IMG/VR virus record: IMGVR_UViG_3300005535_000018
Span: 39,500 to 103,499 of that record
DNA length: 64,000 nucleotides
Origin: a virus
Taxonomy: Duplodnaviria > Caudoviricetes
Strand: one strand, 5' to 3'
How positions within the stretch are numbered: position 1 is the first letter of the stretch; each line of letters begins with the position of its first letter. The notes under the pieces are model-generated. The model saw nothing but the letters and a program-made list of their open reading frames with translations. It searched no databases and was not told where the DNA came from. The position numbers and the translations under genes are program-made. Below, piece after piece: positions 10,732 to 63,592 of the stretch.

Positions 10732-10764
10732 CCCGCCGACCCTCCCAGGATCTTGACACGTCAC

Positions 10765-10836
10765 GTCTAGACAAGCTAGACCAGCGTGTGACGCGACACG
10801 GCCAAAGTCAAGCCTCTCGGCTAAACTTGTCTAGAC
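10765..10836. promoter_or_regulatory. GntR/HutC-type operators in a divergent promoter region
   Basis: GTCTAGACAAG (10765-75) and CTTGTCTAGAC (10826-36); GTCTAGAC core. Confidence 0.75.
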
Positions 10837-10892
10837 CGGTGTGTTGGCTCATGATGGGGGGCGACCCGCGCCGCCGAGAAGGAGACGAGTAG

Positions 10893-21329: not shown

Positions 21330-21622
21330 CGGCGCCGGGTGCGGGCCAGCTCGTCCGGCGCCGCCGGGGCGACGGTGACGGTGAGCAGGTGGCCGAAGCG
21401 GCGGCAGGCGTAGGGGCGGCTGGTGCCCAGCGCATCCGCGATCTCATCCCAAGTCATGGGCTTCGGCTTCAACGCCCGGGCCGCGGCCACGGCCGCCAGC
21501 TCGTCGCGCTCCAACTGTGCCCGGCGGGCCGGCATCGCCTGAAGCGCCTCTGTGGCTGCGGCTTTGGCCTCAGCGGCCACCGCCACGGCGGCCGGGTCGG
21601 GTGGCGTAGTCGTCTTCGTCAT
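21326..21622 (-). CDS. Small HTH regulator
   Basis: MTWDEIADALGTSRPYACRRFG. Confidence 0.8.
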   Translation of the reverse strand: MTKTTTPPDPAAVAVAAEAKAAATEALQAMPARRAQLERDELAAVAAARALKPKPMTWDEIADALGTSRPYACRRFGHLLTVTVAPAAPDELARTRRR

Positions 21623-21629
21623 GCTCCCA

Positions 21630-21712
21630 AGTGTGCCGGATTGTCTCTGAGATAACAAGGGGCGAAACAGGGACTTGTTATCTCTGGGGTACGGATGTAT
21701 CGTAGGGACAAC
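21630..21712. promoter_or_regulatory. Divergent promoters/operators; regulon copy 1
   Basis: TTGTTA-17-TATCGT on plus; TTGTTA-17-CACACT on minus; 11-bp inverted repeat at 21649-59 and 21674-84. Confidence 0.75.
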
Positions 21713-21749
21713 GACATACAGACGCAGACCCCCACAGAAGGAGCAAGCC

Positions 21750-22755: not shown

Positions 22756-22808
22756 TGCCCCAGAGAACCCCTTGTGTTCTCTGGGGCACTGTCGTATCCT
22801 AGAGATAC
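22756..22808 (+). promoter_or_regulatory. Repeated promoter/operator, copy 2
   Basis: 13-bp stem hairpin; TTGTGT-17-TATCCT; CTAGAGATAC. Confidence 0.85.
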
Positions 22809-22826
22809 CAACCACAGGAGGCCCCC

Positions 22827-23541: not shown

Positions 23542-23566
23542 AGCGCCCCGGGCCTTGCGTCCGGTT

Positions 23567-23620
23567 TGCCCCAGAGAACCCCTTGTGTTTCTCTGGGGCA
23601 CTGTTGTATCCTAGAGACAC
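23567..23620 (+). promoter_or_regulatory. Repeated promoter/operator, copy 3
   Basis: TTGTGT-18-TATCCT; same hairpin. Confidence 0.85.
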
Positions 23621-23643
23621 AACGACGAGGCGAGGAGCCCACC

Positions 23644-24807: not shown

Positions 24808-24816
24808 TCTGCCGCA

Positions 24817-24870
24817 AGTGCCCTAGAGACACCCTTGTGTCCTCTAGGGCACTAGTGTATCCTAGAGACA
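24817..24870 (+). promoter_or_regulatory. Repeated promoter/operator, copy 5
   Basis: AGTGCCCTAGAG/CTCTAGGGCACT; TTGTGT-17-TATCCT. Confidence 0.85.
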
Positions 24871-24891
24871 ACACCAACCGAGGAGAGCCAA

Positions 24892-25311
24892 ATGACCGCC
24901 ACCAGCACCCACGAGTCCCGCTCCACCGAGATCGCGAAGGCCTTCGGCTTCGACTTCGACTTCGCCAGCCTGTGCACCACCGAGACGGGCCCAACCGGGG
25001 CGCAGCGGTTCGTGCTGTCCCTGATCGAAGAGATCACCTCGACCGAGCGTCAGATCGAGACGCGCCGCTACTGGATCCAGTCGAACCTCGACCGGACCAT
25101 GGGCGAGGTCAACGCCATCGACGGCCGGCCCTCCAGCCTCACCGCGGTCAGCGCCGACGAGCTGAACGGCCTCGTGGCCACCCTCGTCGCGCTGCGCAAG
25201 GTGCTCTCCGAAGCCAAGCGCACGATGTTCCCCGACGCCCCCAAAGAGCCCCGCAAGGTCACGCTCGGCCCCGACCAGGTAGCCCGGCGCACGGCGCAGC
25301 GGGCGCAGTAG
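24892..25311 (+). CDS. Hypothetical helical protein
   Basis: GAGGAG RBS. Confidence 0.75.
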   Translation: MTATSTHESRSTEIAKAFGFDFDFASLCTTETGPTGAQRFVLSLIEEITSTERQIETRRYWIQSNLDRTMGEVNAIDGRPSSLTAVSADELNGLVATLVALRKVLSEAKRTMFPDAPKEPRKVTLGPDQVARRTAQRAQ

Positions 25312-26161: not shown

Positions 26162-26755
26162 ATGGTCACCAAGCAAGAAGCCGAGGCCGCCCTGGCGCGG
26201 GCCTTCGCCGAGATGAACGAGCCGGCCGCGCGGGACGCGATCGCCGGCATTCTCGGCGTGGACTCGATCACGTTCGCGGTCGACGACGAGGCAGAGCCGG
26301 CGCCGTGGCCGGCCGAGACGATGACGGTGCGGGTGCGTGACCGCTCAGCCGAGGCGCCATGGGGCTTTGGCCTCACCAACCCGGTCGTGCGGGTCGTCAC
26401 GATCTCGGCGTTCTGCACGGTCTGCGGCGGCCGCCGCGGCGAGCCGGGCAACCTCAACCAGTGCGACGACGGCGCGCACTACTCGGTCGACGTGTGGACC
26501 AACCCGTGCGGGCACACCGACGAGTACAGCGACGTCGTCGCCGAGGCGGCCGAGCTGCTGGCCCGGTACCCGTACTGGACGGCGACGACCCGCAAGGGCA
26601 CCACCCTGCACCGCGCCGGCCCGGCCGGCTTCACCGTCGACGGGTGCCACCGGTCGATGACGGCCGGCGGCGTCCGGCTCACGCCTGACGACGTCGCGGC
26701 GATGGACTACACCTGGTGCACCCTGTGCCCCGTCGACGAGGCGCCGCGTGCCTGA
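26162..26755 (+). CDS. Hypothetical Cys-rich protein
   Basis: AGGAAGG RBS. Confidence 0.7.
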   Translation: MVTKQEAEAALARAFAEMNEPAARDAIAGILGVDSITFAVDDEAEPAPWPAETMTVRVRDRSAEAPWGFGLTNPVVRVVTISAFCTVCGGRRGEPGNLNQCDDGAHYSVDVWTNPCGHTDEYSDVVAEAAELLARYPYWTATTRKGTTLHRAGPAGFTVDGCHRSMTAGGVRLTPDDVAAMDYTWCTLCPVDEAPRA

Positions 26756-27068
26756 GCGGGTGTGGCGGCGGCGTACGGCCGGCTGGCGTAAGCCGGCCGG
26801 CGTCGTCGACGTCACCCGGCCCGGCCAGTGGTGCAACCCGTACCGGGTCGGCCGGCCGTGGCGCGGCTACCGGGCCGCCGCCGACGCGGCTGAGGCGGTG
26901 TGGCTGTTCCGGACCCTGGTGGCCGAGAGCCCAACGTTCGTCGAGCTGGTGCGGGCCGAGCTGGCCGGGCGGGACCTGATGTGCTGGTGCCCGCTCGTCG
27001 ACAGCCGCGGCCGACCGATGCCCTGTCATGCCGATGTTCTTTTGGAGATCGCTAATGCGCCCCGTTGA
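26748..27068 (+). CDS. DUF4326-family protein
   Basis: GWRKP..V.VTRP..W.NP; LAGRDLMCWCP..CHADVL. Confidence 0.85.
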   Translation: MPERVWRRRTAGWRKPAGVVDVTRPGQWCNPYRVGRPWRGYRAAADAAEAVWLFRTLVAESPTFVELVRAELAGRDLMCWCPLVDSRGRPMPCHADVLLEIANAPR

Positions 27069-27181: not shown

Positions 27182-27186
27182 GCCCC

Positions 27187-27225
27187 TTGTGTCCCTAGGG
27201 ACACGGGTGTATCTTAGGGATACAC
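27187..27225 (+). promoter_or_regulatory. Repeated promoter/operator, copy 6
   Basis: TTGTGT-17-TATCTT; palindrome GTGTCCCTAGGGACAC. Confidence 0.8.
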
Positions 27226-27242
27226 AGGATGAGGGAGCCGAG

Positions 27243-27836
27243 ATGAACACGAGCACGATGACCCCCCGCGAGATCGACGAGATGCTGGCCGACCTCTACA
27301 TGGCCCGCCTCGCCAACGACCACGCCTACGAGATCGCGCTCAACGCCATCCACAGCGCCGTCGGCTCCCGCGAGTACGTCCGGGGCAGCTGGGCCCAGAA
27401 GGGCCACTACGTCAACCACATGACCGATGAGGCCGCAATCGGGGAGCAGCGCCGCCGCCTCGACGCGGGCGAGGTCGAGGCGTGGAACGTCGAGTACGCC
27501 GAGAGGCGGCTGGCCGCCCTCGACGCCTGCGACGCCGAGTACACCCGCATCATCGTCGCGAAGACGCCCCTCGACGACGAGTTCGCCCGTCGGCCCTGGT
27601 CGCGGTTCTTCCTCGTCACCTCGAGCGATGGGCACATCCACTCGTCGATGTCCTGCCAGACGTGCAGGTGGTCGACGACCTTCGGGTGGCTGCCCGAGCT
27701 GTCGGGCCAGACCGAGGCCGACGCCGTCGCGTTGCGCGGCCCGGCGCTGTGCACGGTCTGCTTCCCGTCGGCTCCGACCGAGTGGACCAGCGCCAAGCTC
27801 ACCAAGACGGGCCGGCTCAGCAAAGCGGCCCGCTGA
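27243..27836 (+). CDS. Conserved actinophage hypothetical protein
   Basis: WSRFFLV..GHIH..CxTC..WLPELSG..LCTVCFPSAP. Confidence 0.78.
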   Translation: MNTSTMTPREIDEMLADLYMARLANDHAYEIALNAIHSAVGSREYVRGSWAQKGHYVNHMTDEAAIGEQRRRLDAGEVEAWNVEYAERRLAALDACDAEYTRIIVAKTPLDDEFARRPWSRFFLVTSSDGHIHSSMSCQTCRWSTTFGWLPELSGQTEADAVALRGPALCTVCFPSAPTEWTSAKLTKTGRLSKAAR

Positions 27837-34920: not shown

Positions 34921-36893
34921 CGGTGGCGACCCTGCCCGCCCACCGTCTGCCCGACCTCAACCAGCGCTGCACCGGCACCGCGACCACGACCGGCGCCCAG
35001 TGCCGCCGGTGGACCGTGCCCGGCACCGACCGGTGCGGCACCCACGCCTCCGCGACGTTGCCGATGCAGGCCGTCACCGCCTCGGTCGCCACGGTCCAGA
35101 TGGAGGGGGTGGGGTGGCGTACCTGGCGGCCCGGCTCCCGCACCTGGCAGACCGAGGCGTGGCGCCTCTACGACATCACCCCCCAGCTGCGGTTCGTCTG
35201 CAACTGGGTCGGCAACTCCGTCAGCCGGTGCCGGCTGTACGTGGCCGAGCTGGACGAGTCCGGCGAGATCACCGGCGAGGTCGACGACCCCGAGATCGGC
35301 GCCCTGGCGCAGGGCCCCCTCGGTAAGGGCCCCGCCAAAGACGAGGCGCTGCGACTGCTGGCGATCAACCTGTACGTGCCGGGTGACGGCTTCATCGTCG
35401 CCGAGGCCGACGCCGGCCCCGACGGCGACGACCTGTGGTTCGTGACGAGCGGCCGCCAGATTCGCCTGTCCGGCGACCGGATCATCATTCGCCGCTCGCT
35501 GCTGCACGGCGGCGGCGACATGATCTTTAGGCCCGGGGTGGACCTGCTGCTGCAGGTGTGGACGCCTCACCCGGCCGAACCGGACGAGCCGGACTCGCCG
35601 ACCCGCTCGGCCATCCCTGACCTGCGAGAGATCGAGGCCCTGCGCAAGCGCGAGTTCGCCGAGTTGGACTCGCGGTTGGCCGGCGCGGGCCTGCTCGCCC
35701 TGCCGCAGGGCATCGACTTCCCTCGGGCGCCCGACGACCCGCCCGGCATCGACGGCTTCCAACGGCTGCTGATGCGGGCGATGGCGACCAGCCTGCAGGA
35801 CCGGGCCTCCGCCGAAGCCCTCGTGCCGATCATGGTGACCGTCCCGCCCGACGTCGTCGACAAGATCAGGCTGGTCACGTTCTGGAGCGACCTGTCCGAG
35901 CAGTTGCTGCCGTTGCGTGAGGCGGCCGTGCGGTCCCTCGCCCAGGGCCTGGACATACCACCAGAAATCCTCCTAGGTCAGGCAGATAGCAATCACTGGA
36001 CTGCCTGGCAGGTGAGCGACGATGCGATCACCACGCAGATCAAACCGATCTTGGCCCGCATCGCCGACGCCCTCACCACCGGCTACCTGCGCCCGGCGCT
36101 CGAGTCGATGGGCCTCGACCCGGACCTGTACTCGTACGACTTCGACACCGGCCCCCTGTCCGCCCGCCCGAACCGCACCACCGACGCCCTCGCCTACCAC
36201 TCCGAGATCCTGTTGTCCGACGAGGCGGCCGTGCTCGCGGGCGCGTGGACGCCGGAGCAGATGCCCACGCAGCGGGAGCGGCTACGCCGCATCGCGGAGC
36301 GGGCCCTGGTGGCTGACCCGACCCTGCTGACCGACCCGACGATCAGGGAACTGGTGGGCCTACCGCCGCCCCCGCCGTCGGTGGTCGCGCCGGCCCCACC
36401 GCCCGGCGCCCCCAGCCCGCCGCCGCCCGCCCCGGGTCAGGAACCCCGCGCTATCCCGACCCAGCCCACCGAGGCTCCCAAACCGGCCCCCCCGCCGGCC
36501 CAGCCCGCCCCCGCGCCGGCCCCGACGGCAGCGTTGCTGCTGCCCGTGGCGGGGCTGGCGGTGCGGCGGGCCCTTGCCCTGGCCGGGGTGCGGCTGGTCA
36601 CCCACTACCAACGTGACCAGTGGCCCGACACGCCCCGCCACCAGCTCCACACCCGACGCGGCCCGGTCAGCGTCGCCGACGCCGAACGGGTGCTGCGCGG
36701 CGCCTGGACCGAGCTGGCCCCCGCCGCCGACGACCTCGGCCTTGACCCGGTCAGTGTTGAGACCCTCCTGCACGGCTTCTGCGTCGAGCTCCTCACCCGC
36801 GGCATGGCGTACGAGGCGACCCTGCTGCGTGACCTCGTCGACGCCGCCTGCACCGGCCGGCGCCTCGACGCGGCACTGGGGGTCGCCGCATGA
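34917..36893 (+). CDS. Portal protein
   Basis: Position after TerL; WQTEAW.LYD..PQL; DSP.RS; LDIPPEILLG..NHW.AW. Confidence 0.85.
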   Translation: MTVATLPAHRLPDLNQRCTGTATTTGAQCRRWTVPGTDRCGTHASATLPMQAVTASVATVQMEGVGWRTWRPGSRTWQTEAWRLYDITPQLRFVCNWVGNSVSRCRLYVAELDESGEITGEVDDPEIGALAQGPLGKGPAKDEALRLLAINLYVPGDGFIVAEADAGPDGDDLWFVTSGRQIRLSGDRIIIRRSLLHGGGDMIFRPGVDLLLQVWTPHPAEPDEPDSPTRSAIPDLREIEALRKREFAELDSRLAGAGLLALPQGIDFPRAPDDPPGIDGFQRLLMRAMATSLQDRASAEALVPIMVTVPPDVVDKIRLVTFWSDLSEQLLPLREAAVRSLAQGLDIPPEILLGQADSNHWTAWQVSDDAITTQIKPILARIADALTTGYLRPALESMGLDPDLYSYDFDTGPLSARPNRTTDALAYHSEILLSDEAAVLAGAWTPEQMPTQRERLRRIAERALVADPTLLTDPTIRELVGLPPPPPSVVAPAPPPGAPSPPPPAPGQEPRAIPTQPTEAPKPAPPPAQPAPAPAPTAALLLPVAGLAVRRALALAGVRLVTHYQRDQWPDTPRHQLHTRRGPVSVADAERVLRGAWTELAPAADDLGLDPVSVETLLHGFCVELLTRGMAYEATLLRDLVDAACTGRRLDAALGVAA

Positions 36894-38139: not shown

Positions 38140-40287
38140 ATGGGTACGCGCTGGCGCGGGATGCTCGCGCCGATCAACCGGCCGACCGGCGACGGGCGGC
38201 GTATGGCCAAGGGTGCGTTCCGGTCCCGGCCGCTGCCCCTGGCCCTGAAGTGGCAGCGGCAAGACGAGATGGGCCACGATTCCTCGGTTGTGGTTGGCCT
38301 CGTCGACCGGCTCGACATCGACGAGGTGTCGGGCGAGGTGTGGGCCGAAGGGGAGCTGTTCGACGACCAGCCCCAGTTGCCGCGCCTCACCCAGGACGTC
38401 GCCGAGGCGATGCTGCTGACCTCCAAGAAGATCATCGGCCCGTCGGTGGATGCCGGCGCCGCCGAAATGATCTTTGTGCGGGAGGGCTCCGACGTCCCGT
38501 TGACTGACGCTGACTGGGAAGAGCTGCTGCGCCAGGAGATGGACTCAGGCGAACCGGCACCCATCGAGATGCTGTTCACCGACTACGAGATCGCCGCCGC
38601 CACACTGGTCGCGATTCCGGCGTTCGTCGAAGCCCGGCCATTCCAGCTGCTGCCCGCCGCCCCGGCCGAGCAACCCGCCCCCGACGCGGCGCCCCAGCCC
38701 GCACCGGAGCCAGCGCCGGCCGCGGCCGGCCGGCTTGCGGTGCTGACCGCGGCCGCGGCCGGGCCGGTCACGTTGCCGGCTGACGTGTTCGCCGGCCCCG
38801 CCGACGCCCCGCCCTACCAGCTGCTGACGGTTGAGGCGCCCCGCGACGGGGAGCCGTTCCGGCGGGTGGCCGGCTACGCCGCCGCGTTCGGCGTGTGCCA
38901 CGTCGGGTTCAAGGGCGTCTGTGTCCAGGCCCCCAACGCCTCGGTCGACTACGCCCTGTACCACCGCTACCCGCTCGACACGGCCGAAGGTCTGGTGGCC
39001 ACCGGCCGCATCACCACCGGCCTCGGCCGGGTCGGGTCGGGCTGCTCGCACCTCAAGTGCCGCCGCAACGACGACCACGCCTGCCGCGACTATTCGCTGA
39101 CCGACACGATCAGCCACCACGACCAGATGCGCACCGTTGCGCACGTGCGGGCGACCGAATACGCCGGCGTGGGCGTCTGGGTCCAGGGCATCATCGCCGA
39201 CGACGCCACCGACGACGACCTGGCGGTGCTGGCCCGGCAGCGGGTGTCGGCCGACTGGCGCGAGTACGCGGGCCACCTCGAGATGGTCGAGGTGTTGGCG
39301 TTGGCGAAGGAGGAGCCCGGCTTCCCGATTCCCGCGACGACCATCCGCGACGGCCGCCAGTACAGCCTGATCGCGGCGGGTGCGGTGCCGCCTCTCGACC
39401 CGGTGACCGTGACACCGCCACCCGAGCCGGAGTTGGCGGGCGTGGCGGCGACGATCGCGTCGCTGGTCGTGGCGGAGCTCCGCCGGCCGCTGCTGGCCGC
39501 GGCCGCCGCCGCCGACTCGAAGCCCGCGCCTGACCAGCAGCCCCCGCCGGACTGCCAGCCCGGCGAGCCGGGCTGCGAAGACATGCCGATGCCGGTGCAG
39601 CACACCGGCGCGATGGTGGCGTTGGTGCCGTCAGAAGCCGACGCGGCCCGCCTCGCCGTCGACGGCGGCGAAGCCCCCGAAGAGCTGCACCTCACCCTCG
39701 TCTACCTGGGTGAGGCGGCCGACATCAACGCCGCCAGCCGGCAGGCCATCATCGACTCCCTGACCTCGCTGTGCGCGGAGTGGCACACGGCTGCCGAAGG
39801 TGAGCTGTCGATCGTCGGGGATGCGTTCAGCGTCAACGCTTTCAACCCGGCGGCCGAAGACAAGGAACCCTGCATCGTGTTGGGCGTCTCGGGCGAGCAG
39901 GTCGCCGCCGCCCACGAGCAGGTGACCGACGTCGTCAAGGCCGTCTTCGGGTTCCCGCCCCAACACCAGCCGTACGTGCCGCACGTGACCCTCGCCTACA
40001 CCGAGGACATGTCGCTGATCGCCGACCTGGCCGACCGCACCGGCGACGTCACGTTCGACCGGGTCCGGATCGCGTTCGCGGGCGCCTACCACGACATTCC
40101 GTTGGGCGGCCCCGCCGACCCGGCCACCGACGGCGAGGCCCCGCCAGCCGGCGGGCAGGAGCCGGTGACCGCGGCGGCGTTGCTGGCCGAGCTGGGCGCT
40201 GCCCTCGACTGGCCCGACGCCGACGAGCGGGCCCGGGCCGCGGCCGAGCTGGCCCGCGAGATCGAGCGGGAGGCCGTGCATGTGTAG
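38140..40287 (+). CDS. Head maturation protease-like protein with C-terminal 2H phosphoesterase
   Basis: TGDGR..LPL..GH..VVG; HLTL and HVTL motifs. Confidence 0.78.
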   Translation: MGTRWRGMLAPINRPTGDGRRMAKGAFRSRPLPLALKWQRQDEMGHDSSVVVGLVDRLDIDEVSGEVWAEGELFDDQPQLPRLTQDVAEAMLLTSKKIIGPSVDAGAAEMIFVREGSDVPLTDADWEELLRQEMDSGEPAPIEMLFTDYEIAAATLVAIPAFVEARPFQLLPAAPAEQPAPDAAPQPAPEPAPAAAGRLAVLTAAAAGPVTLPADVFAGPADAPPYQLLTVEAPRDGEPFRRVAGYAAAFGVCHVGFKGVCVQAPNASVDYALYHRYPLDTAEGLVATGRITTGLGRVGSGCSHLKCRRNDDHACRDYSLTDTISHHDQMRTVAHVRATEYAGVGVWVQGIIADDATDDDLAVLARQRVSADWREYAGHLEMVEVLALAKEEPGFPIPATTIRDGRQYSLIAAGAVPPLDPVTVTPPPEPELAGVAATIASLVVAELRRPLLAAAAAADSKPAPDQQPPPDCQPGEPGCEDMPMPVQHTGAMVALVPSEADAARLAVDGGEAPEELHLTLVYLGEAADINAASRQAIIDSLTSLCAEWHTAAEGELSIVGDAFSVNAFNPAAEDKEPCIVLGVSGEQVAAAHEQVTDVVKAVFGFPPQHQPYVPHVTLAYTEDMSLIADLADRTGDVTFDRVRIAFAGAYHDIPLGGPADPATDGEAPPAGGQEPVTAAALLAELGAALDWPDADERARAAAELAREIEREAVHV

Positions 40288-43201: not shown

Positions 43202-43886
43202 CGTGAGCGTGGTGATCGCCTACCGAGACATGGGCGACCCGCACCGGGCCCAGGCCTTCCGGTACGTGCTGGACTGGTGGCAGGGCCTCGACGTGGAGAT
43301 CGTCGTCGAATCCGGGACGTCAGACGCCACCTTCACCCGCGCCACGGCGATCAACGCCGCCGTGACCCGAGCCAACGGTGACCTGATCATCGCGGCCGAC
43401 CCGGACAGCCTGGTACCGGCCGACCCGTCCCTGGTCGACGCCCTCGCCGTCGCCTCGGCCGCCGACGGCCTGGTCATCCCCCACGACCAATACCTGTACC
43501 TGACCCCGGCAGCCACCGCAGACGTGTACGGCGGCGCCGACCTGTGGGCGATGGGGCCGCAGCATTGCGAGTTCCACGGCCGCAACGGCCAAGGCAACGT
43601 GGTCGTGTTCCACCGCTCTGTCTGGCAGAAGGTCGGCGGGCTGGATGAGCGATTCCCGCTGTGGGGCGGTGACGACGCCGCGTTCTCGTACGCGACGCAC
43701 GCCTTGGTCGGGCCGATGGTGCGCCTGCCCGGCCCGATGGTCCACCTCTGGCACCACCGGCTACCTCAGTCCGAGCCGGGCCATCCTGGCTACGCCGAAC
43801 AGTTCGCGCTGTTGGCCCAGTACCGCGACGCCGCCGCCCAGGGCCCCGACGCGGTGCGGGCGCTGGTGGAGGCCCGCCGTGTATGA
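43191..43886 (+). CDS. Glycosyltransferase (GT2 with GT7C-like motif)
   Basis: SVVIAYR; AADPD; VGGLDERFPLWGGDD; HLWH. Confidence 0.87.
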   Translation: MATDVSVVIAYRDMGDPHRAQAFRYVLDWWQGLDVEIVVESGTSDATFTRATAINAAVTRANGDLIIAADPDSLVPADPSLVDALAVASAADGLVIPHDQYLYLTPAATADVYGGADLWAMGPQHCEFHGRNGQGNVVVFHRSVWQKVGGLDERFPLWGGDDAAFSYATHALVGPMVRLPGPMVHLWHHRLPQSEPGHPGYAEQFALLAQYRDAAAQGPDAVRALVEARRV

Positions 43887-44505
43887 CGCCGCTTTCTTCG
43901 ACACGATCAGGGCCGGCTGCCAGGCCAGCGCCGCGGTGGTGGTGCCGCTGGTGCTGGAGCACTTCTCTCCGCACGTGGTGCTCGACGTCGGGTGCGGGGA
44001 AGGCTGGTGGGCGAAGGCCTTCGCCGAGGTGGGTGGCTGTGAGGTGCTCGGCCTTGACGGCCCCGGCGGCGGCGGCGCGCTCGACGGCCGGTTCGTCGCG
44101 TGGGATCTGCGCTACTCCTTCGCCGACGTGGCCCAGGCCGATCTGGCCGTCGCGCTCGAGGTGGCCGAGCACCTGCCCGAGAAGCGGGCCGACCGCTTCG
44201 TCGACGACCTGTGCGCGGTCGCCCCGGTCGTGCTGTTCTCTGCCGCCGTCCCGGGCCAGGGCGGCACCGGCCACGTCAACGAGCAGTGGCCCGACTACTG
44301 GGTGGCCCGTTTCCAGGCCCGCGGCTTCGAGGTGTCGGGGGCGTTGCGTTGGCAGATCTGGGGTGACGACCGTGTCGAAAACTGGTACCGGCAGAACTTG
44401 CTCTTCGCGACGCGCTATCCGCAGAACTTCCCTCGGCTGTTCGACACCCCCCTGGCCGAGCCCTGGCCCGTTGTGCACCCGGTCCTCTACGACGCCCGAC
44501 GCTGA
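43879..44505 (+). CDS. Class I SAM-dependent methyltransferase
   Basis: VLDVGCGEG; LEVAEHL; PGQGGTGHVNEQ. Confidence 0.9.
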   Translation: MYDAAFFDTIRAGCQASAAVVVPLVLEHFSPHVVLDVGCGEGWWAKAFAEVGGCEVLGLDGPGGGGALDGRFVAWDLRYSFADVAQADLAVALEVAEHLPEKRADRFVDDLCAVAPVVLFSAAVPGQGGTGHVNEQWPDYWVARFQARGFEVSGALRWQIWGDDRVENWYRQNLLFATRYPQNFPRLFDTPLAEPWPVVHPVLYDARR

Positions 44506-44557
44506 CAGCTACGACATCACGATCAGCGTCTCCAGCCCCCAAACGGGTGATGGTGAT

Positions 44558-45121
44558 GTGTCGATCCGGGTGCGTTCCGACCTACCCGCCGACAGCCGTG
44601 GAAAGGTCGTTGCCACGTTGCTGGCCGCGGTTGAGATGCTGACCGGGGTGCCCTGCGACGGATACGCCGAAACGATCCTGGCCAGCGAGGGCGACGACAC
44701 GGTGGGGCTGACCTCCATTCACTGCGTGCACTGCGACGCCAACCACACGCCCCGGTTCCTGTGCGACCCGGCGAAGGCGATCCTCGACGCGCTGGCTGCG
44801 CAGGCCGCCGGCCGGACGATGCCGACGCTGGAGTTCCTGGACCAGCCGCTGGTCGACAGCCCGTTCCGCATCGGCACCCACCCGGGCGACGCGTTGATGC
44901 TCCAGCTCGTCATCCAGGCCGCCGCCGTCCCGGTCGGCGACACCGGTCTGGTCCGGCCGGCGATCGTGCTCACCGGCCAAGACCACTACGGCCAGCCGTT
45001 GCCGCAGTGGCTGTACGCCGGCAACCCCGACGACCTCGCCCGGGCCCACAAACTGTTCGGCGACATGACCGCCCTCGCCGTCAAGGCCGCCCGCCAGGCC
45101 AGCCAAGGAGGCCCGGCGTGA
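44558..45121 (+). CDS. Hypothetical protein (start uncertain)
   Basis: GC3-rich frame; CxxC..H..C. Confidence 0.55.
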   Translation: MSIRVRSDLPADSRGKVVATLLAAVEMLTGVPCDGYAETILASEGDDTVGLTSIHCVHCDANHTPRFLCDPAKAILDALAAQAAGRTMPTLEFLDQPLVDSPFRIGTHPGDALMLQLVIQAAAVPVGDTGLVRPAIVLTGQDHYGQPLPQWLYAGNPDDLARAHKLFGDMTALAVKAARQASQGGPA

Positions 45122-45468
45122 CCATCCACACCGTGCGTCTCGTCGGCCAGGTGCTCGACGTCACCACCACCGCGATCATGGTCGGGTTCGTGGCCTACAT
45201 CGCGTGGCTGGTGTGGCGGTACCCGGTCGGGTTGCCGCACTGGCCGCCGCTGCTGCTGCTGTGGGCTTCGTTGCTGATCGCCGTGATGGACTTCGGCCGG
45301 GCCGGGTTCGGCGCCGGCCAGGTCCACTACGTGACCGGGGCGGCGTGGGTGGGGTGCGCCGCGGCGACGTGGGCGGCGCGGCGGATAACCCAGCGCCGGC
45401 ACCGCGAGCAGATGCTCCGCCTGGCGGCCGCCGAACCGCACGAGCAACGCCAGCGGCGCCTGCGATGA
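45118..45468 (+). CDS. Small membrane protein
   Basis: AAGGAGG RBS; 3 hydrophobic segments. Confidence 0.7.
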   Translation: MTIHTVRLVGQVLDVTTTAIMVGFVAYIAWLVWRYPVGLPHWPPLLLLWASLLIAVMDFGRAGFGAGQVHYVTGAAWVGCAAATWAARRITQRRHREQMLRLAAAEPHEQRQRRLR

Positions 45469-46274
45469 CGACGGCCGTAGTTGGTATCGCCATGGTTCGC
45501 GACGAGGCCGACGTCATCGCCGGCACCCTCGCCCACATGGGCGACGAGGTTGACGCCCTGGTCGTCGCGGACAACCGGTCAATTGACGGAACCCGCACCC
45601 TGCTGGCGAAAGCTGCCGCCGACCTGCCGGTGCCGTTGACAGTGTTGGACGACCTGGACCCGGCCTACTACCAGGCTGACAAGATGACCGCCCTGGCCGA
45701 GCGGGTCGCGGCCGAGTATGACGGCGACCTGTGGATCGTCATATTCGACGCTGACGAGATCTGGTACTCGCCCCACGGCCCCATCAGGGAGGTGCTGGCC
45801 GAGGTTCGCGTCAACGTCTGTCAGGCCGCCCTTTACAACCACTTCCGGACGCCGCTTGACGTCGACGACCCGGACCCGTTCCGGTCGATGGTGTGGCGCA
45901 CCCGCGAGCCGGCCGGGCTGGGAAAGGTGGCGTTCCGGTGGCGGCCCGGGGCCCGCATCGAGCAGGGCAACCACGGCGTCACCCTGCCCCACGACCTGAT
46001 GGCCGGACTGTCCAGCGACGTTCTCGAGCTGCGCCACTTCCCGTACCGCTCGGCCGCCCAGCTCATCACCAAGGCCACCAACGGCGCCGAGGCCTACGCC
46101 CTGACCGACCTGCCCGCCGAGATGGGCGCCCACTGGCGGGCCTACGGGGAGATGCTCGACCGGTACGGCCCGGACTACCTGCGCGACGTGTTCCACACGC
46201 ACTTCTACAAGCGCTCACCGATCGACGAGGGCATGATCCAAGACCCGGCCCCGTACCGGCGGTGGGAACAGTGA
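45465..46274 (+). CDS. Glycosyltransferase (GT2_4-like)
   Basis: AMVRDEAD; DNRSIDGT; FDADEIW; HFPYRS. Confidence 0.88.
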   Translation: MTTAVVGIAMVRDEADVIAGTLAHMGDEVDALVVADNRSIDGTRTLLAKAAADLPVPLTVLDDLDPAYYQADKMTALAERVAAEYDGDLWIVIFDADEIWYSPHGPIREVLAEVRVNVCQAALYNHFRTPLDVDDPDPFRSMVWRTREPAGLGKVAFRWRPGARIEQGNHGVTLPHDLMAGLSSDVLELRHFPYRSAAQLITKATNGAEAYALTDLPAEMGAHWRAYGEMLDRYGPDYLRDVFHTHFYKRSPIDEGMIQDPAPYRRWEQ

Positions 46275-47059
46275 CCGAGCTGTCTGACGCCGACGGGCCC
46301 GACATGTACGTGATGCACGACCACACCGAACGGATAGAGGGCCAGCCGGGCCGGCACAGCCATTCGACCCAGTACGGCGGCCACGGCGCCGACGGTGACC
46401 ACAACGACGTCGAGGTCATCACCTGGCTCGAACACGGCCGCCGCTACCGCAACCAGCCAGCCGAGGGGCAGCAGTGAGGGGCTGGCGGGCGGTGGCGTTC
46501 TACGTGGCGTTGCTGGCCATCGGCTGCGGCATCTTCCAGGTCGTCTACCGGTGGACCGACGCCCAATGCCGGGCCCGCGGCGGCCACACCGAAATCGTGT
46601 ACGGCGGCCGGACGGGTTGGACGTGCGATGGGGCCCGGCCGTGACGGGACAGTCCAGAGTTGATCGGCTCATCGCCGCCGCTGCCGCGTGTGTGACCTGC
46701 GGTGAGGAGCACCAGCCCCAACCGGCGACCGGGCGGCGGGCGGCGCCGTCGTGGGCCAGCCCGGTCGACGGGCACGCCTACCGGCGGCGGCTGATCGACG
46801 TGGAGTGGCTGCGGGCGTGGGCGGCGGCGAACCCGTGACCGGCACTGGACGACCCCGCCGCTGGGGCACCCTGATCGAGCGGATCGCGATGGAGCTCCGG
46901 CAGATCGAAGCTGAGGATCTGGCTGCACGGGGCGGGTACCGCTACAACCGGACAGCGGAAGAGACGTGGGAGCCGATCAGCGACCTGCTGCGCGCCGGGT
47001 ACCGCCGCGACGCCCGCCGGCTGTTGAAAGTCATGCGGGCCTGGGTGGCTAAGCCGTGA
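46271..47059 (+). other. Chain of about 4 coupled mini-ORFs (46271-46477, 46474-46643, 46640-46838, 46835-47059)
   Basis: Successive GTGA overlaps. Confidence 0.5.
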
Positions 47060-47204
47060 GCGCCCCCGCCGACACGGGCTGCCCTGCCGGGTCCAGCATC
47101 TGCGACGGGTGGGTGACGGGAAGCTGGCCCGATGTGGTCTTCTCGTCGGTCCTGCTGGTGTGTCTGGCCGCTGTGCTGATCGCCTGGATACGGCGGCCCC
47201 GCAA

Positions 47205-47963
47205 GTGAAGGCGGCCGTGGTCGTGCCGTGGCGGGGCGGCGACCCGGCGCGGGAGAAGGCCTGGGCGTGGCTGCAACCGTGGTGGGGGCAGCATCTACCC
47301 GTCGTGGTCGGCACCCCACCCGAGGGGCCGTGGTGCAAGGCGGCCGCCGTCGCCGACGCCCTGGCCCGCACCGACGCTGAGGTGCTCGTGGTCGCTGACG
47401 CTGACGTGTGGGTGCCCGGCATTGACCGTACGGTCGACATGGTCGCGTCGGGGGGCGTGGCGTGGGCGATGCCCCACAAGCGGGTCTACCGGCTCACTGA
47501 GGCCGGCACCGACGTTCTCCTGGCCACGGGGCGACCTCCGTCGCCGGTGCGGGTTGACCGGCCCCGCGGGTCGGCCCCAACCCCGCCCGGCCAGCTCATC
47601 GTCGAATCGCACCACGGCGAGATCGGCGGCGGCTGTGTCGTGTTGCCCGCCGACCTGTACCGGCAGGTGCCGCTCGACCCTCGCTTCGTCGGCTGGGGCC
47701 AGGAGGACACGAGCTGGGGAAGGGCGTTGACCGTGATCGCTGGCCCGCCGTGGCGGGAGCCGGAGCCGCTGTGGCACCTGTGGCATCCGCCGCCGCGGCG
47801 CGCAGGCAAAGGTGAGCAACCCGACCCGGCCCAATACACCCGACGGGACCGTGCAGTCGGCACCCCCGCCGGCCTCGCCCTGTACCGCCGCTACCGGGAC
47901 GCGACCACGCCGGAGGCAATGCGGGCCCTATTGGCTGAGTTCGCCCCGAACCCGCCCGCCTGA
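47205..47963 (+). CDS. Glycosyltransferase (GT2 with GT7C-like motif)
   Basis: VVVPWR; VADADV; DPRFVGWGQED; HLWH. Confidence 0.87.
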   Translation: MKAAVVVPWRGGDPAREKAWAWLQPWWGQHLPVVVGTPPEGPWCKAAAVADALARTDAEVLVVADADVWVPGIDRTVDMVASGGVAWAMPHKRVYRLTEAGTDVLLATGRPPSPVRVDRPRGSAPTPPGQLIVESHHGEIGGGCVVLPADLYRQVPLDPRFVGWGQEDTSWGRALTVIAGPPWREPEPLWHLWHPPPRRAGKGEQPDPAQYTRRDRAVGTPAGLALYRRYRDATTPEAMRALLAEFAPNPPA

Positions 47964-48021
47964 CCCGGGCATGTGGGACAGTCCGGGCGTGCTGGGACGG
48001 CCGGGACGGCGGGAGGCCGTG

Positions 48022-48414
48022 GTGACGCTGCGGGCCGAGGTCGAGCTAGCGCCGGCCACGAGGGCGGCCCTGTTCGACCTGGTCACCCTGGCCCATCAGA
48101 TCAACAACCGCCTGAGCCGCTTGGAGCACAAGATGACCGATCTCACCGACCTTCTCAACCAGGAGCAGGTCAGCCTCGCCGACATCGCCGCGGTGTTGGC
48201 TACTACGGCCGCCGACGTGGGCGCGCTGCTGGCCCGCGCCACCGGCGTGTTCACGCCCGACGAGCGCGCCCAAGCCGACGCCACGTTGGCCGCCCTCGCC
48301 GCTGTCGGCACTGCCGTCACCAACCTCAGCACGCAGGTCGGCGACCAGGACGCCGACGGCAACCCGCCGACGACGCCACCGCCCCCGCCGCCCCCGCCGC
48401 CAGTAGAGCCGTAG
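48022..48414 (+). CDS. Coiled-coil protein with Pro-rich tail
   Basis: GGAGG RBS. Confidence 0.6.
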   Translation: MTLRAEVELAPATRAALFDLVTLAHQINNRLSRLEHKMTDLTDLLNQEQVSLADIAAVLATTAADVGALLARATGVFTPDERAQADATLAALAAVGTAVTNLSTQVGDQDADGNPPTTPPPPPPPPPVEP

Positions 48415-48431
48415 CTCGACGACCCTCCACG

Positions 48432-48465
48432 ACTGGGGGACGGTTCGGTTGAACTGTCCCCCAGT
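48432..48465. terminator. Hairpin upstream of the capsid gene
   Basis: ACTGGGGGACGGTTC-GGTT-GAACTGTCCCCCAGT. Confidence 0.6.
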
Positions 48466-48602
48466 GCCGTTCCGGTCGGCTACCTTCCCGGTGACACGAG
48501 CGAGACGGGGCGTGACGGTGCGGCCGGCCCTCGACGGCGCTTACGCATACTGGCGGCTGCTGCGGTCAGGCCAGGTGTGAGACCAGATTATTGGGGTCTT
48601 CC

Positions 48603-50474
48603 ATGCCTGACGAGCCGATCGTTGACGACGCTCCAGCCACCACCGAATACGCTTTCCCGTTTCAGGTCCCGACCGACCTTGCGGGCCTGTCCGACGCCGA
48701 CCTGCGTGCGCTGCACGAGCAGGTCCGCGCCCACGCTTCCGGCTTCTCGGGCCTCAGCCCGGCCGACACCACCGACGAGACCCTGGCCGCGCTGACCGCG
48801 TGCCGTGACCTCGCCCGCAACATCTCGGGGGAGATCGTGGGCCGCCGCGACCGGGCCGCCGCCGCCGGTGACCTCGCCGCGGAGATTGACGAGCTGGAGC
48901 TGCCAGCCGACCCGGACCCGGCCGACCTCGACGCGGCCGCCGACGTCGACAACGGCGGCGATGACGACGACGCTGCCCTTGCCGAGCCTGAGCCGGCCCT
49001 GACCGCGTCACGCCGCTCCATGCCGGCGCCGCGGGTGCGTGACGTGGCCCGCCGCTCGCCGGCCTCGACACCGCTGACGCCCGCCGCCGCGACCCGGGGC
49101 GCCTACGCCTCCCTCAACGCGGTCGCGTCGATCGGCGGCTACTCGGCCGGGCAGCGCCTCGAGTCGTTCGGCGACGCCGCCCGGGCGATGATGACGCAGC
49201 TCGAGCGGTACCAGTCCCTCACGGCTGGCCGGGCCCGCGGCAACAAGCGCTACGCCGGCAAGACCCGCCCCGTCACGATGTACGACAAGGACGACCCGGG
49301 CCGCCGGTTCGAGCTGCGCAACTACTCCCGCCACAACATCGCCGAGTTGCGGCGCGAGTTCCCGGCCGAGCTGCGCGTGGACGAGGCGACCGGCAACGGC
49401 TACGCGGTGGCCGAGTACGCCGCCAGCGAGCGGCGGCTGCCGGGCGGCAGCCTGATCGCGTCGGTGGCCCAGTCGGTCCGCAACGGCCGGTCGCTGACCG
49501 CCGCCGCTGGATGGTGCGCTCCATCCGACGTGATTTATGATCTTCTAGAACTTGAATCCCTCGATGGGATGCTAGACATCCCGGAGATCCAGACCACCCG
49601 CGGTGGCTGGCAGATCCCGATTGACGGCGGCCCCGACTTCAGCTCGATCTACAACGCGCTCGGCAACGGCGGTGACACGCACCTCACCGAGGCCGAGGTG
49701 ATGGACGACGCCACCAAGATCTGCACCGAGATTCCCTGCCCTCCCTTCGAGGACGTCCGGCTGGGCGTCGACTACTTCTGTTTGACCGGCGGCCTGCTCC
49801 AGCGCCGCGGCTACCCGGAGGTCGTCGCCCGCTTCACCAGGGGTGCCACGGTTGCCCTCGCCCACAAGATCAACTATGGGGTGATGGCCCAGATCGTCGC
49901 CGCCAGCGGCGCGGTCAATTTCATCCCGCAGGACCCCAACGGCGACGACGCCGCCAGCGCCCTGCTCGCCGCGATCGACCTGGCGATCGTCGATGCCAAG
50001 TACCGCAACCGCATGGGCTTCGCCACGACGATGGAGGTCATCCTCCCGTGGTGGGTGCTGGTGCAGGTGCGGGCCGCCCTGGGCCGCCGCCGCGGTGTTG
50101 AGGGCTGGCAGGTCACCAACGCCGAAATCCTGTCGTGGTTCGCGGAGCGCAACGCCCGCCCGCAGTTCATCTACGACTGGCAGGACGCCGCGTCTGGTCT
50201 GGCGACCGGGCCGGGTGGGGCGACGCCGCTGACCCGCCTTCCCCTGACCGTGGACTTCGCCCTGTGGCCCGCGGGCACCTGGGTCAAGCCAGTGCAGGAC
50301 GTGGTCAGTTTGGACACAATTTACGATTCAACCCTTTTGAGCACTAACCAATACACCGCCGTCTTTGTCGAAGATGGATGGGCGACGATGCAAATGTCGC
50401 CGATCTCACGCCTCTACCGGGTCAACGTCGATCCCGGTGGCGTCACCGGCTGCTGCGACACCGTCGGGTCCTGA
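48603..50474 (+). CDS. Major capsid (hexamer) protein with N-terminal scaffold region
   Basis: AAGWCAPS..YD; RRGYPE; LDTIYDS..L.TN.YTA.F.E.G; resembles mycobacteriophage cluster B-type capsids. Confidence 0.88.
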   Translation: MPDEPIVDDAPATTEYAFPFQVPTDLAGLSDADLRALHEQVRAHASGFSGLSPADTTDETLAALTACRDLARNISGEIVGRRDRAAAAGDLAAEIDELELPADPDPADLDAAADVDNGGDDDDAALAEPEPALTASRRSMPAPRVRDVARRSPASTPLTPAAATRGAYASLNAVASIGGYSAGQRLESFGDAARAMMTQLERYQSLTAGRARGNKRYAGKTRPVTMYDKDDPGRRFELRNYSRHNIAELRREFPAELRVDEATGNGYAVAEYAASERRLPGGSLIASVAQSVRNGRSLTAAAGWCAPSDVIYDLLELESLDGMLDIPEIQTTRGGWQIPIDGGPDFSSIYNALGNGGDTHLTEAEVMDDATKICTEIPCPPFEDVRLGVDYFCLTGGLLQRRGYPEVVARFTRGATVALAHKINYGVMAQIVAASGAVNFIPQDPNGDDAASALLAAIDLAIVDAKYRNRMGFATTMEVILPWWVLVQVRAALGRRRGVEGWQVTNAEILSWFAERNARPQFIYDWQDAASGLATGPGGATPLTRLPLTVDFALWPAGTWVKPVQDVVSLDTIYDSTLLSTNQYTAVFVEDGWATMQMSPISRLYRVNVDPGGVTGCCDTVGS

Positions 50475-62261: not shown

Positions 62262-62705
62262 ATGACCGAGCCCCGCACGATCGCCAACACTGACCAGCCG
62301 ATGCAGCACCCCTGGCCGGCCGACTGCTACGTGCAGGGCGGCGGCCGCGGTGTCGTCTTCGTCGACGGGGGGCGCAGCTACCGGACGGCGTTCGTTGAGG
62401 CCTTCCCCGGCACGTTCCTGCGCGGCGAGGGCGCCACCCTCGCCGACGCTGAGGACGCCTGCTGGGCTCAGTACGAGAGGATGCAGGCGTGCCCGGCCGC
62501 CCCCGACCACGGCCCGTTCGAGGCGAGGGGCTACACCAACGGGGCCGGTTTCTGCACCCAGTGCGGCGGCTGGTTCGCCAGGGTGCTGCCGCCGCAGCCC
62601 GAGCCGGGCGACGTGCGGCCCAACTCCCTGCTGCACCGTGCGTTCAGCGGCGACGTCGGCGCCGCCGTTGAGGCCGTCGGCACCTACCTCGAGGCGCAGC
62701 AGTGA
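62262..62705 (+). CDS. Phage hypothetical protein
   Basis: TAFVEAFP.TFLRGEG; GFCTQC. Confidence 0.7.
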   Translation: MTEPRTIANTDQPMQHPWPADCYVQGGGRGVVFVDGGRSYRTAFVEAFPGTFLRGEGATLADAEDACWAQYERMQACPAAPDHGPFEARGYTNGAGFCTQCGGWFARVLPPQPEPGDVRPNSLLHRAFSGDVGAAVEAVGTYLEAQQ

Positions 62706-63022
62706 AGCCGCCGACCGGGGCGTGGACGGTGCGTACGTGGTGGCTCGGGATACCGGGCGAGCCAGTCGACGACGAAGTTCACCCCGTCACCGAGCGGCCC
62801 CACGAGACGTGGGAGCCGGCCCGCAAACAGGCCCTGAATCTGTGCTGCTGCCGCGGCTCGGTCGCCGTGGTCGTGTACGACCCGGACGGCGACGTGTTCG
62901 CCCATTGGGACCGGTTCTCGAACATCGCCCACCACATGTGGGGCTCCCCGGACGACGAGGCCCGGGCCGCCCTCACCCAGGCCGCGTGGGACGAGGAACG
63001 GAAGGACCGGGCCAGTGTCTGA
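62702..63022 (+). CDS. Hypothetical protein
   Basis: Coupled. Confidence 0.6.
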   Translation: MKPPTGAWTVRTWWLGIPGEPVDDEVHPVTERPHETWEPARKQALNLCCCRGSVAVVVYDPDGDVFAHWDRFSNIAHHMWGSPDDEARAALTQAAWDEERKDRASV

Positions 63023-63296
63023 CATCCAGGACGGGCTATGCCGGCGGGTGGTCGACCTGCTACACCGCCTCGACGCCGACCTGGACCGGTCAGGCCAGCC
63101 GGCGTTGACCGCGACGCTGGCGCGGGAGGGACTGCGCGGCGAGGTTGACGGACTGCGCTACGCCCTGTGTCTGACGCTCGGCATCGACCCGGTAGCCGAC
63201 CCTTGGGCCGCCGAGAAGGAAGGCCCGGCCGACGACTACGTCCGGGCATGGCACAACGAACACTGCCAGCGCGACGACTGTGAGGGCCCATGGTGA
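63015..63296 (+). CDS. Hypothetical protein
   Basis: Coupled. Confidence 0.6.
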   Translation: MSDIQDGLCRRVVDLLHRLDADLDRSGQPALTATLAREGLRGEVDGLRYALCLTLGIDPVADPWAAEKEGPADDYVRAWHNEHCQRDDCEGPW

Positions 63297-63592
63297 GCGA
63301 CGAAACCGCAAACCTGGACGTGGAGGTGTTCTCCGACCGTGGCGCCCAGCGGCTGCTGTCGCTGCGGGGGCTGACCCACGCGCCAGCGGTCGGGGACACC
63401 ATGTCGATCGGGGACCGGCACTACCAGGTCCGCCGCCGCCACTGGTGCGTCGGCGACAGTTTCGGCGCCGGGGGCCCATACAAGCCGAGCGTGGGCACGG
63501 TCGAGATCTACGTGCGGGCGGTGCGCTTCGACGGCCCGTACGGCCGTCGGGTCGGGCGGCCGCCAGTGTCTGAGACTGACGAGAGGGGCTGA
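63290..63592 (+). CDS. Hypothetical protein
   Basis: Coupled. Confidence 0.6.
   Translation: MVSDETANLDVEVFSDRGAQRLLSLRGLTHAPAVGDTMSIGDRHYQVRRRHWCVGDSFGAGGPYKPSVGTVEIYVRAVRFDGPYGRRVGRPPVSETDERG

What the first reader, a model, noticed from the sequence alone, without database searches (positions are those of the whole stretch)
49506..50393. Two recoded islands on the most conserved capsid motifs
Seen: 49506-49574 (AGWCAPSDVIYDLLELESLDGML) has 14 of 23 A/T-ending codons, including the run ATT TAT GAT CTT CTA GAA CTT GAA. 50307-50393 (SLDTIYDSTLLSTNQYTAVFVEDGWATMQ) has 13 of 29 plus two TTG. The rest of the gene is strongly GC3, as expected for a highly expressed gene. With the portal and DUF4326 patches this makes four sharp islands of about 35-90 bp. 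Inference: a systematic immunity-by-recoding footprint of inter-phage nuclease or guide conflict; the responsible nuclease is not in this window.
Basis: partly seen in the sequence, partly recalled or inferred. Interest (0 to 1): 0.8.

Follow-up and report, generated by a model that had tools for sequence, protein, structure and literature searches.

The report
Recoded silent-site islands in capsid gene
Two short stretches of this soil phage's capsid gene keep their protein sequence but have nearly every silent codon position rewritten, and close relatives carry several different versions at the same two spots. This most likely reflects a conflict over DNA-cutting enzymes between related phages, but the enzyme and its cutting site are not shown.

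Summary
Island 1 (49506-49574) has 14 of 23 A/T-ending codons. Island 2 (50307-50393) has 13 of 29, plus two TTG. The rest of the gene has 7.8% (P about 1e-10 and 8e-8).

The islands lie on the DNA stretches most conserved across 62 high-GC relatives. They are not a family feature: about 74 high-GC relatives use G/C-ending codons there, so the A/T versions are derived.

Within a close clade (74-91% protein identity) the sites are polymorphic:
- Island 1's A/T allele is shared almost base for base with one other phage.
- Island 2 has at least three haplotypes, and these cut across gene relatedness.
- Island 2 is the clade's peak of synonymous diversity.
- The gene is a fine mosaic of 100-300 bp patches.

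The window's 103-kb record holds no HNH, GIY-YIG, EndoVII, T5orf172, LAGLIDADG, intein, VIPR array or tRNA. However, a sister phage carries a free-standing HNH endonuclease gene in a 1.17-kb insertion 1.15 kb upstream of its capsid gene. The insertion is absent from the window and from a near-identical sibling.

My best reading, at about 40%, is that these are target-site immunity or co-conversion alleles of a homing-type nuclease conflict. Cleavage is untested, and the HNH-bearing phage carries the G/C alleles. Similar patches were noted earlier in this scan on other DNA.

The parts
48591..50474 (+). Major capsid protein gene (627 aa; N-terminal scaffold-like coiled coil plus HK97-fold body)
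   Evidence: phrog_777 major head protein, E 1.8e-141. 68% nt identity to Actinoplanes phage phiAsp2 major head gene. AlphaFold model matches phage capsids and encapsulins.
49506..49574 (+). Island 1: derived A/T-ending synonymous haplotype over AGWCAPSDVIYDLLELESLDGML
   Evidence: 14/23 A/T-ending codons. G/C-type in phiAsp2 and nearly all of 74 high-GC relatives. Lies on the top family-wide DNA-conserved window.
49485..49568 (+). Block shared with L053 (an independent metagenome): about 93% nt identity here, while the flanks are nearest to other relatives
   Evidence: Codon alignment. Sliding nearest-neighbour scan. 17/23 identical codons against 5-12/24 for other clade members.
50307..50393 (+). 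Island 2: derived A/T-ending synonymous haplotype ('type A') over SLDTIYDSTLLSTNQYTAVFVEDGWATMQ, including four Ser/Leu codon-family switches
   Evidence: 13/29 A/T-ending codons plus 2 TTG. Type A is shared with L054 and L253. Type B is in L003, L055 and L069, and partly in L053. G/C type is in L006, L049, L050, L056, L251, L252 and phiAsp2. Clade-wide peak of synonymous diversity, 0.597 against a mean of 0.335.
35946..36008 (+). Comparable A/T-ending island on the portal motif GLDIPPEILLGQADSNHWTAW
   Evidence: 10/21 A/T-ending codons in the window and 8/21 in five clade relatives, with partly different codons. Most distant high-GC relatives have 0-2. Portal = phrog_776, E 3.8e-151.
47800..47879 (+). 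Empty site: where sister record G402 carries a 1.17-kb insertion with a free-standing HNH endonuclease gene, 0.7 kb upstream of the window's capsid start
   Evidence: BLAST of upstream regions: L006 288-943 and 2217-2734 map to window 47158-47800 and 47879-48396. HNH = PF01844/PF14279 and phrog_1035. Absent from G000 and G403.

Best explanation
The two islands are derived, sharply bounded synonymous alleles of the capsid DNA segments that are most conserved among high-GC actinophages. In this clade such alleles (G/C type and several A/T types) are passed between otherwise diverged phages by short-patch recombination. The most likely driver is a homing-type endonuclease conflict. A site-specific nuclease carried by some clade members, or by an unsampled competitor, cuts conserved capsid DNA during co-infection. 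Broken copies are repaired from a co-infecting genome. Alleles rewritten at silent positions escape or mark that process, as target-site immunity alleles or co-conversion tracts. Because 92% of codons end in G/C, almost any silent rewriting produces A/T endings. Shown: the recoding, its derived state, local excess of synonymous change, allele sharing across backgrounds, and an HNH gene that is present or absent beside the capsid gene in sister phages. Inferred: that any nuclease cuts inside these motifs, and that the A/T alleles resist it.
For: - Islands are statistically extreme and unique in 103 kb.
- They are derived: G/C type in phiAsp2 and about 74 high-GC relatives.
- Local synonymous difference is 0.5-0.8 per codon against 0.24-0.38 background. 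L003 and L006 (0.07 background) differ at 12/29 codons in island 2. Island 2 is the clade-wide diversity peak and exceeds the 95% permutation bound.
- At least three haplotypes at island 2 cut across relatedness, and type A also occurs in a 74%-identical relative.
- The gene is a 100-300 bp mosaic.
- The islands sit on the top DNA-conserved windows, the kind of site homing nucleases use (PMC5050341).
- A free-standing HNH gene lies in a lower-GC 1.17-kb insertion 1.15 kb upstream of the capsid gene in G402. It is absent from near-identical G403 and from the window. Its nuclease domain is 48% identical to cluster J mycobacteriophage free-standing HNH genes (PMC3706429).
- Homing nuclease genes cluster near capsid genes in phages generally (PMC10448857).
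Against: - No nuclease gene of six families, and no intein, in the window's record.
- The only HNH found is 2-2.9 kb from the islands, in a phage that carries the G/C alleles. Known carriers normally hold the variant, immune allele.
- Its target may simply be its own insertion site.
- No intron, intein or nuclease gene interrupts the capsid gene in the phage records sampled out of 852 matches (835 of them cover at least 80% of the query in one piece).
- L003 and L006 also differ in short patches at non-conserved places, so patchiness alone is not site-specific.
- The portal island is A/T-rich in all six clade members, which fits maintained A/T richness as well as conflict.
Confidence: 0.4

Rival explanations
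1. Neutral import. Short recombination patches from unsampled relatives with lower GC3 land everywhere. They survive only where donor and recipient proteins are identical, that is, on the most conserved motifs, leaving synonymous A/T-rich patches with no nucleotide-level selection.
For: Pervasive short-patch mosaicism. Family members with GC3 of 0.65-0.77 exist. There is a graded series of A/T counts among relatives.
Against: No donor was found in 50,697 phage records, IMG/VR or 91 family genes; the best matches to the window's islands are only its own clade. The island peptides match the close clade, not distant low-GC members. Three mutually divergent haplotypes occur at one site.
Confidence: 0.25
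2. Escape from guide-based targeting. CRISPR spacers, or another nucleic-acid-guided system of hosts or rival phages, aim at DNA conserved across many phages. In invariant motifs only silent changes can escape, and recombination spreads escape alleles.
For: The islands lie on the most DNA-conserved windows. Several alleles exist per site. Island sizes of 69 and 87 nt fit one to two protospacers. Phage-borne guide systems that target rival phages' coding DNA are documented (bioRxiv 10.64898/2026.04.26.720920).
Against: No spacer-like match in about 400 sampled actinobacterial genomes; the hits were ordinary genes and none lay in an array, though this is a weak test. No GGY/NN array in G000, G402 or the fetched loci. 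VIPR skips wobble bases, so most of these changes would not evade it. A single mismatch usually suffices for CRISPR escape.
Confidence: 0.15
3. Functional rare-codon or open-mRNA patches. A/T-ending, rare codons are selected at these points to slow ribosomes for capsid folding or assembly, or to keep the mRNA unstructured. Codon identity is free to drift.
For: Different A/T codon sets occur at the same sites. The portal island is kept A/T-rich in all six clade members. Island 2 is the most accessible 45 nt of the mRNA model, 0.66 against a mean of 0.38. Both islands are low-confidence segments of the fold model.
Against: Absent from most close relatives and about 74 family members with the same protein motifs. 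Island 1 is not unusually accessible. Folding energies overlap between allele types. Conserved residues are normally encoded by preferred codons.
Confidence: 0.15

Closest known systems
Localized marker exclusion and co-conversion by free-standing homing endonucleases of T-even phages (SegF, SegG, MobE; Edgell et al. review PMC2988022; HEG neighbourhoods in PMC10448857)
   Same: A nuclease gene sits beside an essential conserved gene and is variably present among relatives. Sharply bounded tracts of foreign or variant sequence occur in the neighbouring gene. Alleles are exchanged between co-infecting phages.
   Different: Here the nuclease gene is absent from the phage with the recoded islands. 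The one carrier has the common G/C alleles. The distance is 2-2.9 kb. No cleavage site is known.
Free-standing HNH endonucleases and a capsid-gene intron in cluster J mycobacteriophages (PMC3706429)
   Same: The G402 HNH domain is 48% identical to Baka gp50 and Optimus gp51. That paper links such genes to mosaicism and shows that actinophage capsid genes can be invaded.
   Different: No intron or nuclease gene was found inside this capsid gene family in the records examined. The capsid family is also different.
VIPR RNA-guided inter-phage silencing (bioRxiv 10.64898/2026.04.26.720920)
   Same: A phage-borne weapon aimed at coding DNA of related phages. Self copies are reported elsewhere in this scan as recoded.
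   Different: No vrRNA array was found here. VIPR ignores wobble positions, which are where most of these changes lie.
Exon co-conversion tracts left by mobile group I introns or inteins at conserved motifs (PMC5050341 for phage inteins)
   Same: Location on invariant motifs and short tract length.
   Different: No intein was found in G000, G402 or G403. The major capsid protein is not among the 19 intein hosts listed for actinophages (bioRxiv 10.1101/2025.01.02.630785).

Membership tests
HK97-fold major capsid protein (phrog_777, Rosebush/phiAsp2 type) | Profile match over the whole protein | tested here: met
   phrog_777, E 1.8e-141, residues 23-625. No Pfam match.
HK97-fold major capsid protein (phrog_777, Rosebush/phiAsp2 type) | HK97 fold | tested here: met
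   Model pLDDT 72.8 with a long spine helix. Foldseek matches to phage capsids and encapsulins, 71 with E <= 0.001.
Homing-endonuclease target-site immunity or co-conversion tract | Endonuclease gene next to the affected gene, variably present among relatives | tested here: inconclusive
   Present in G402, 1.15 kb upstream of the capsid gene. Absent in the window and G403.
Homing-endonuclease target-site immunity or co-conversion tract | Carrier genome holds the variant (immune) allele | tested here: not met
   HNH-bearing G402 has G/C-type island alleles. The HNH-less window and G403 have A/T types.
Homing-endonuclease target-site immunity or co-conversion tract | Sharply bounded tract of raised synonymous divergence | tested here: met
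Homing-endonuclease target-site immunity or co-conversion tract | Nuclease cuts the common allele and spares the recoded one | not testable with these tools
   Needs a cleavage assay.
CRISPR protospacer escape | Spacers matching the ancestral allele in host arrays | tested here: inconclusive
   No array-borne match in 381-401 sampled genomes. The host is unknown and the test is weak.
VIPR target or self-avoidance | vipr gene with GGY/NN repeat arrays in the element | tested here: not met
   No array of at least 6 units in G000, G402 or the clade loci. The vipr protein itself was not searched for.
VIPR target or self-avoidance | Differences at codon positions 1-2 (the read bases) | tested here: not met
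   Most changes are wobble. Only four Ser/Leu family switches occur, all in island 2.
Conserved rare-codon cluster (translational pause) | Cluster position conserved across homologues | tested here: not met
   Absent in about 74 high-GC relatives and in half of the close clade.
Intein or intron footprint | Intein or intron at the same site in some homologue | tested here: not met
   The listed matches (a spread sample of 852 phage records) are all single-piece, and 835 of 852 cover at least 80% of the query in one place. No Intein_splicing or LAGLIDADG_3 in G000, G402 or G403.

The most novel reading that the evidence does not exclude
The DNA encoding the invariant motifs of capsid and portal genes in high-GC soil phages is under frequency-dependent selection at the nucleotide level. 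The agent would be a sequence-directed weapon not yet identified in this clade, either a nuclease or a guide system. It would leave 'orphan' recoded islands that persist as trans-lineage polymorphisms and can be read as a map of what inter-phage weapons aim at.
Probability: 0.3. Interest if true: 0.75.

Novelty: new variant of a known kind. Interest (0 to 1): 0.55.

Why it matters
If the islands are immunity alleles, silent-site islands on invariant motifs would be a purely computational marker of nuclease or guide targets in uncultured phages. That would hold even when the weapon lies on another genome. It would also show selection on DNA sequence overriding strong codon bias in the most highly expressed phage gene. 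This clade offers a clean test set: three allele classes at one site, plus an HNH gene that is present in one near-identical genome and absent in the other. If the neutral-import rival holds instead, the pattern is a caution against reading such islands as conflict scars.

Tried and rejected
- **Composition artefact.** Low GC at codon positions 1-2 does not predict low GC3: 57 of 58 such loci have normal GC3. Rejected.
- **Family-wide nucleotide element.** There is no dip in distant relatives, and family-wide A/T-ending frequency rises only slightly in invariant columns, mostly at Gly and Cys codons. Rejected.
- **Promoter or terminator.** None found.
- **tRNA genes.** None found.
- **Repeats or complementarity.** Matches between the islands, or to the rest of the genome, are only chance ones of 16 nt or less. 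Island 1-island 2 duplex energy is no better than shuffles.
- **Operator idea.** CTAG is five-fold under-represented and island 1 has two CTAG-containing sites. L053's version of the same allele has none. Rejected.
- **Donor search.** No match for exact or degenerate island sequences. The 93 hits to a 15-mer extend to 20 nt at most.
- **Metagenome contig scan.** It added no new close relative.
- **Prophage search.** 401 genomes gave no close capsid.
- **CRISPR-like matches.** Only G/C-rich noise and ordinary genes.
- **VIPR arrays.** None found.
- **PDB sequence search.** No hit.
- **Direction of the L003/L006 island-2 patch.** Both versions are about equally distant from other relatives. Unresolved.

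Full report
**What the locus is.** The window is bases 39500-103499 of a 103.5-kb IMG/VR virus record with 72% G+C. ORF 48591-50474 encodes a 627-aa major capsid protein. It matches phrog_777 with E 1.8e-141. The nearest named relative is the Actinoplanes phage phiAsp2 major head gene, at 68% nt identity. An AlphaFold model (pLDDT 72.8) shows an N-terminal coiled coil and an HK97-type body, and it matches phage capsids and encapsulins. The gene lies in a head module of large terminase, portal, MuF-like protein and a 715-aa fusion protein. Glycosyl- and methyl-transferase genes follow, then the capsid gene and the major tail gene.

**The observation.** Binomial tails are 1e-10 and 8e-8, and permutation P is 1e-4. 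Only four 45-nt windows in 64 kb fall below 45% G+C, and two of them are these islands. Across all predicted genes of the record, comparable intragenic dips occur only here and in the portal gene, with a milder one at the helicase Walker A motif. Amino-acid composition does not explain the pattern: 57 of 58 loci with equally A/T-rich first and second codon positions keep normal GC3.

**Comparison with relatives.** I collected the following:
- phiAsp2;
- 36 prophage loci from genomes;
- about 80 IMG/VR loci;
- eleven distinct close relatives, taken from two IMG/VR loci (L003, L006) and from a protein search followed by contig look-ups.

Distant high-GC relatives show no dip at either site. Among 74 high-GC3 family members, median A/T-ending counts are 2-3 for island 1 and 1 for island 2. 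The window has 14 of 26 and 12 of 26 over the same codon spans. The A/T state is therefore derived and limited to one clade.

Within that clade the picture is as follows:
- The island 1 A/T allele is shared only with L053, which comes from another sample. Identity is about 93% over 49485-49568, and 17 of 23 codons are the same.
- L054 carries an intermediate island 1 allele.
- Island 2 has a G/C type (L006, L049, L050, L056, L251, L252).
- Island 2 type A is found in the window, L054 and L253. L253 is only 74% identical in protein.
- Island 2 type B is found in L003, L055 and L069, and partly in L053.

Background synonymous codon difference within the clade is 0.24-0.38. In the islands the window differs from G/C-type relatives at 0.5-0.8 of codons. 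L003 and L006 have a background of 0.07 but differ at 12 of 29 island 2 codons. Island 2 is the clade-wide maximum of synonymous diversity, 0.597 against a mean of 0.335, above the 95% bound of the permuted maximum (0.546). Island 1 is not a clade-wide peak because only two members carry its A/T allele. Genome-wide against sister record G402, only these two places combine at least 10 of 15 synonymous differences with a one-sided A/T excess.

**Location.** Across 62 high-GC relatives outside the clade, the best-conserved 45-nt window of the gene at the DNA level is 49509-49553, and the third best is 50337-50381. Other equally conserved windows (50154-50198 and 49777-49821) carry no island in the window.

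**Mosaicism.** The window's nearest relative changes every 100-300 bp along the gene. L003 and L006 are 96-100% identical per 100 nt except for four short patches, of which island 2 is one. Two other patches lie in non-conserved DNA. Short-patch exchange is therefore general in this gene. What is special about the islands is saturating, purely synonymous, A/T-ending divergence.

**Search for an agent.**
- The window's record has no HNH, HNH_3, GIY-YIG, Endonuclease_7, T5orf172, LAGLIDADG_3 or intein domain.
- It has no tRNA gene in the window and no GGY/NN array of the VIPR kind.
- No homologue among the phage records sampled from 852 matches shows a split capsid gene.
- Sister record G402 does hold a free-standing HNH gene of 234 aa (PF01844 and PF14279, phrog_1035). 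Its nuclease domain is 48% identical to cluster J mycobacteriophage HNH genes.
- That gene lies in a 1.17-kb insertion of lower G+C (0.671 against 0.70-0.72 in the flanks), 1.15 kb upstream of the G402 capsid gene.
- The insertion is absent from the near-identical G403 and from the window, whose empty site is at 47800-47879.

Pope et al. describe such genes as mobile and as a source of mosaicism, and they report an intron in an actinophage capsid gene (PMC3706429). Barth et al. find homing nuclease genes enriched near capsid genes (PMC10448857).

**Reading.** The data show nucleotide-level evolution that is decoupled from the protein. It is concentrated on the most conserved DNA, with several alleles moving between backgrounds, in a clade where a mobile nuclease gene is segregating next to the capsid gene. 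This fits localized marker exclusion, co-conversion and target-site immunity as known from T-even phages (PMC2988022).

The link is indirect, for four reasons:
- The HNH-bearing phage has the G/C alleles.
- The islands are 2-2.9 kb from the insertion.
- The target of the HNH is unknown.
- The portal island is A/T-rich in all six clade members, with drifting codons. That pattern also fits selection for A/T-ending or rare codons.

I put the nuclease-conflict reading at about 0.4, neutral import from unsampled lower-GC3 relatives at 0.25, guide-based escape at 0.15, and a rare-codon or open-mRNA function at 0.15. VIPR in particular is a poor fit, because it skips wobble bases (bioRxiv 10.64898/2026.04.26.720920). 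Only four Ser/Leu family switches in island 2 would matter to it.

**On the 'four islands'.** The DUF4326 gene is 26748-27068. Its patch overlaps GGAG followed seven bases later by ATG 27054, the start of the next gene. It is therefore an ordinary translation-initiation region and should not be counted.

**Earlier notes of this scan.** Similar silent-site patches on other DNA were reported beside homing nucleases or VIPR cassettes. I used them as leads only. The VIPR lead was tested here and not met.

Noticed in passing
L006:1043-2213 (= G402:C1, about 62409-63579): A 1.17-kb insertion of lower G+C carries a free-standing HNH endonuclease gene (L006:1150-1854) just upstream of the capsid gene. 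It is absent from near-identical G403 and from the window.
   Followed up: yes
window 27026-27057: The A/T-ending patch at the end of the DUF4326 gene overlaps GGAG and ATG 27054 of the next gene. It is an ordinary ribosome-binding region, not a recoding island.
   Followed up: yes
window 35946-36008: The portal motif GLDIPPEILLGQADSNHWTAW has 10/21 A/T-ending codons. Five clade relatives have 8/21 with partly different codons, and most distant high-GC relatives have 0-2.
   Followed up: partly
window 21610-21739, 22762-22819, 23565-23630, 24816-24898, 27186-27255: A repeated intergenic unit consists of a G/C-rich hairpin (CCCCAGAGAAC..GTTCTCTGGGG type) followed by GTATCCTAGAGAYAC. It sits upstream of successive + strand genes and is probably a repeated terminator/promoter or operator module.
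   Followed up: no
window 10747-10855: A divergent intergenic region holds three copies of a (G/T)CTAGAC motif, including the perfect palindrome GTCTAGAC twice. It looks like an operator. CTAG is five-fold under-represented genome-wide (53 observed against 266 expected).
   Followed up: partly
window 38140-40287: A 715-aa head-module protein has a C-terminal 2H phosphoesterase (LigT-like) domain. It also has a weak, sub-threshold match to the anti-CBASS Acb1 family (E 0.0024), so it is possibly a virion-associated anti-defence enzyme.
   Followed up: no
window 43883-48452: Glycosyltransferase-like genes here, and methyltransferase genes at the matching place in relatives, lie between the MuF-like gene and the capsid gene. 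This suggests virion glycosylation.
   Followed up: no
G000:C1:22266-23657 (- strand; outside the window): The Walker A region of the DnaB-like helicase has 7/15 A/T-ending codons in G000 and 4/15 in G402. This is a milder patch on another invariant motif.
   Followed up: partly
capsid residues 313-321 and 581-587 (window about 49527-49553 and 50331-50351): The two islands coincide with the only low-confidence segments (pLDDT < 50) inside the otherwise well-predicted HK97 body of the model, even though the residues are invariant. They may be inter-subunit contact loops.
   Followed up: no
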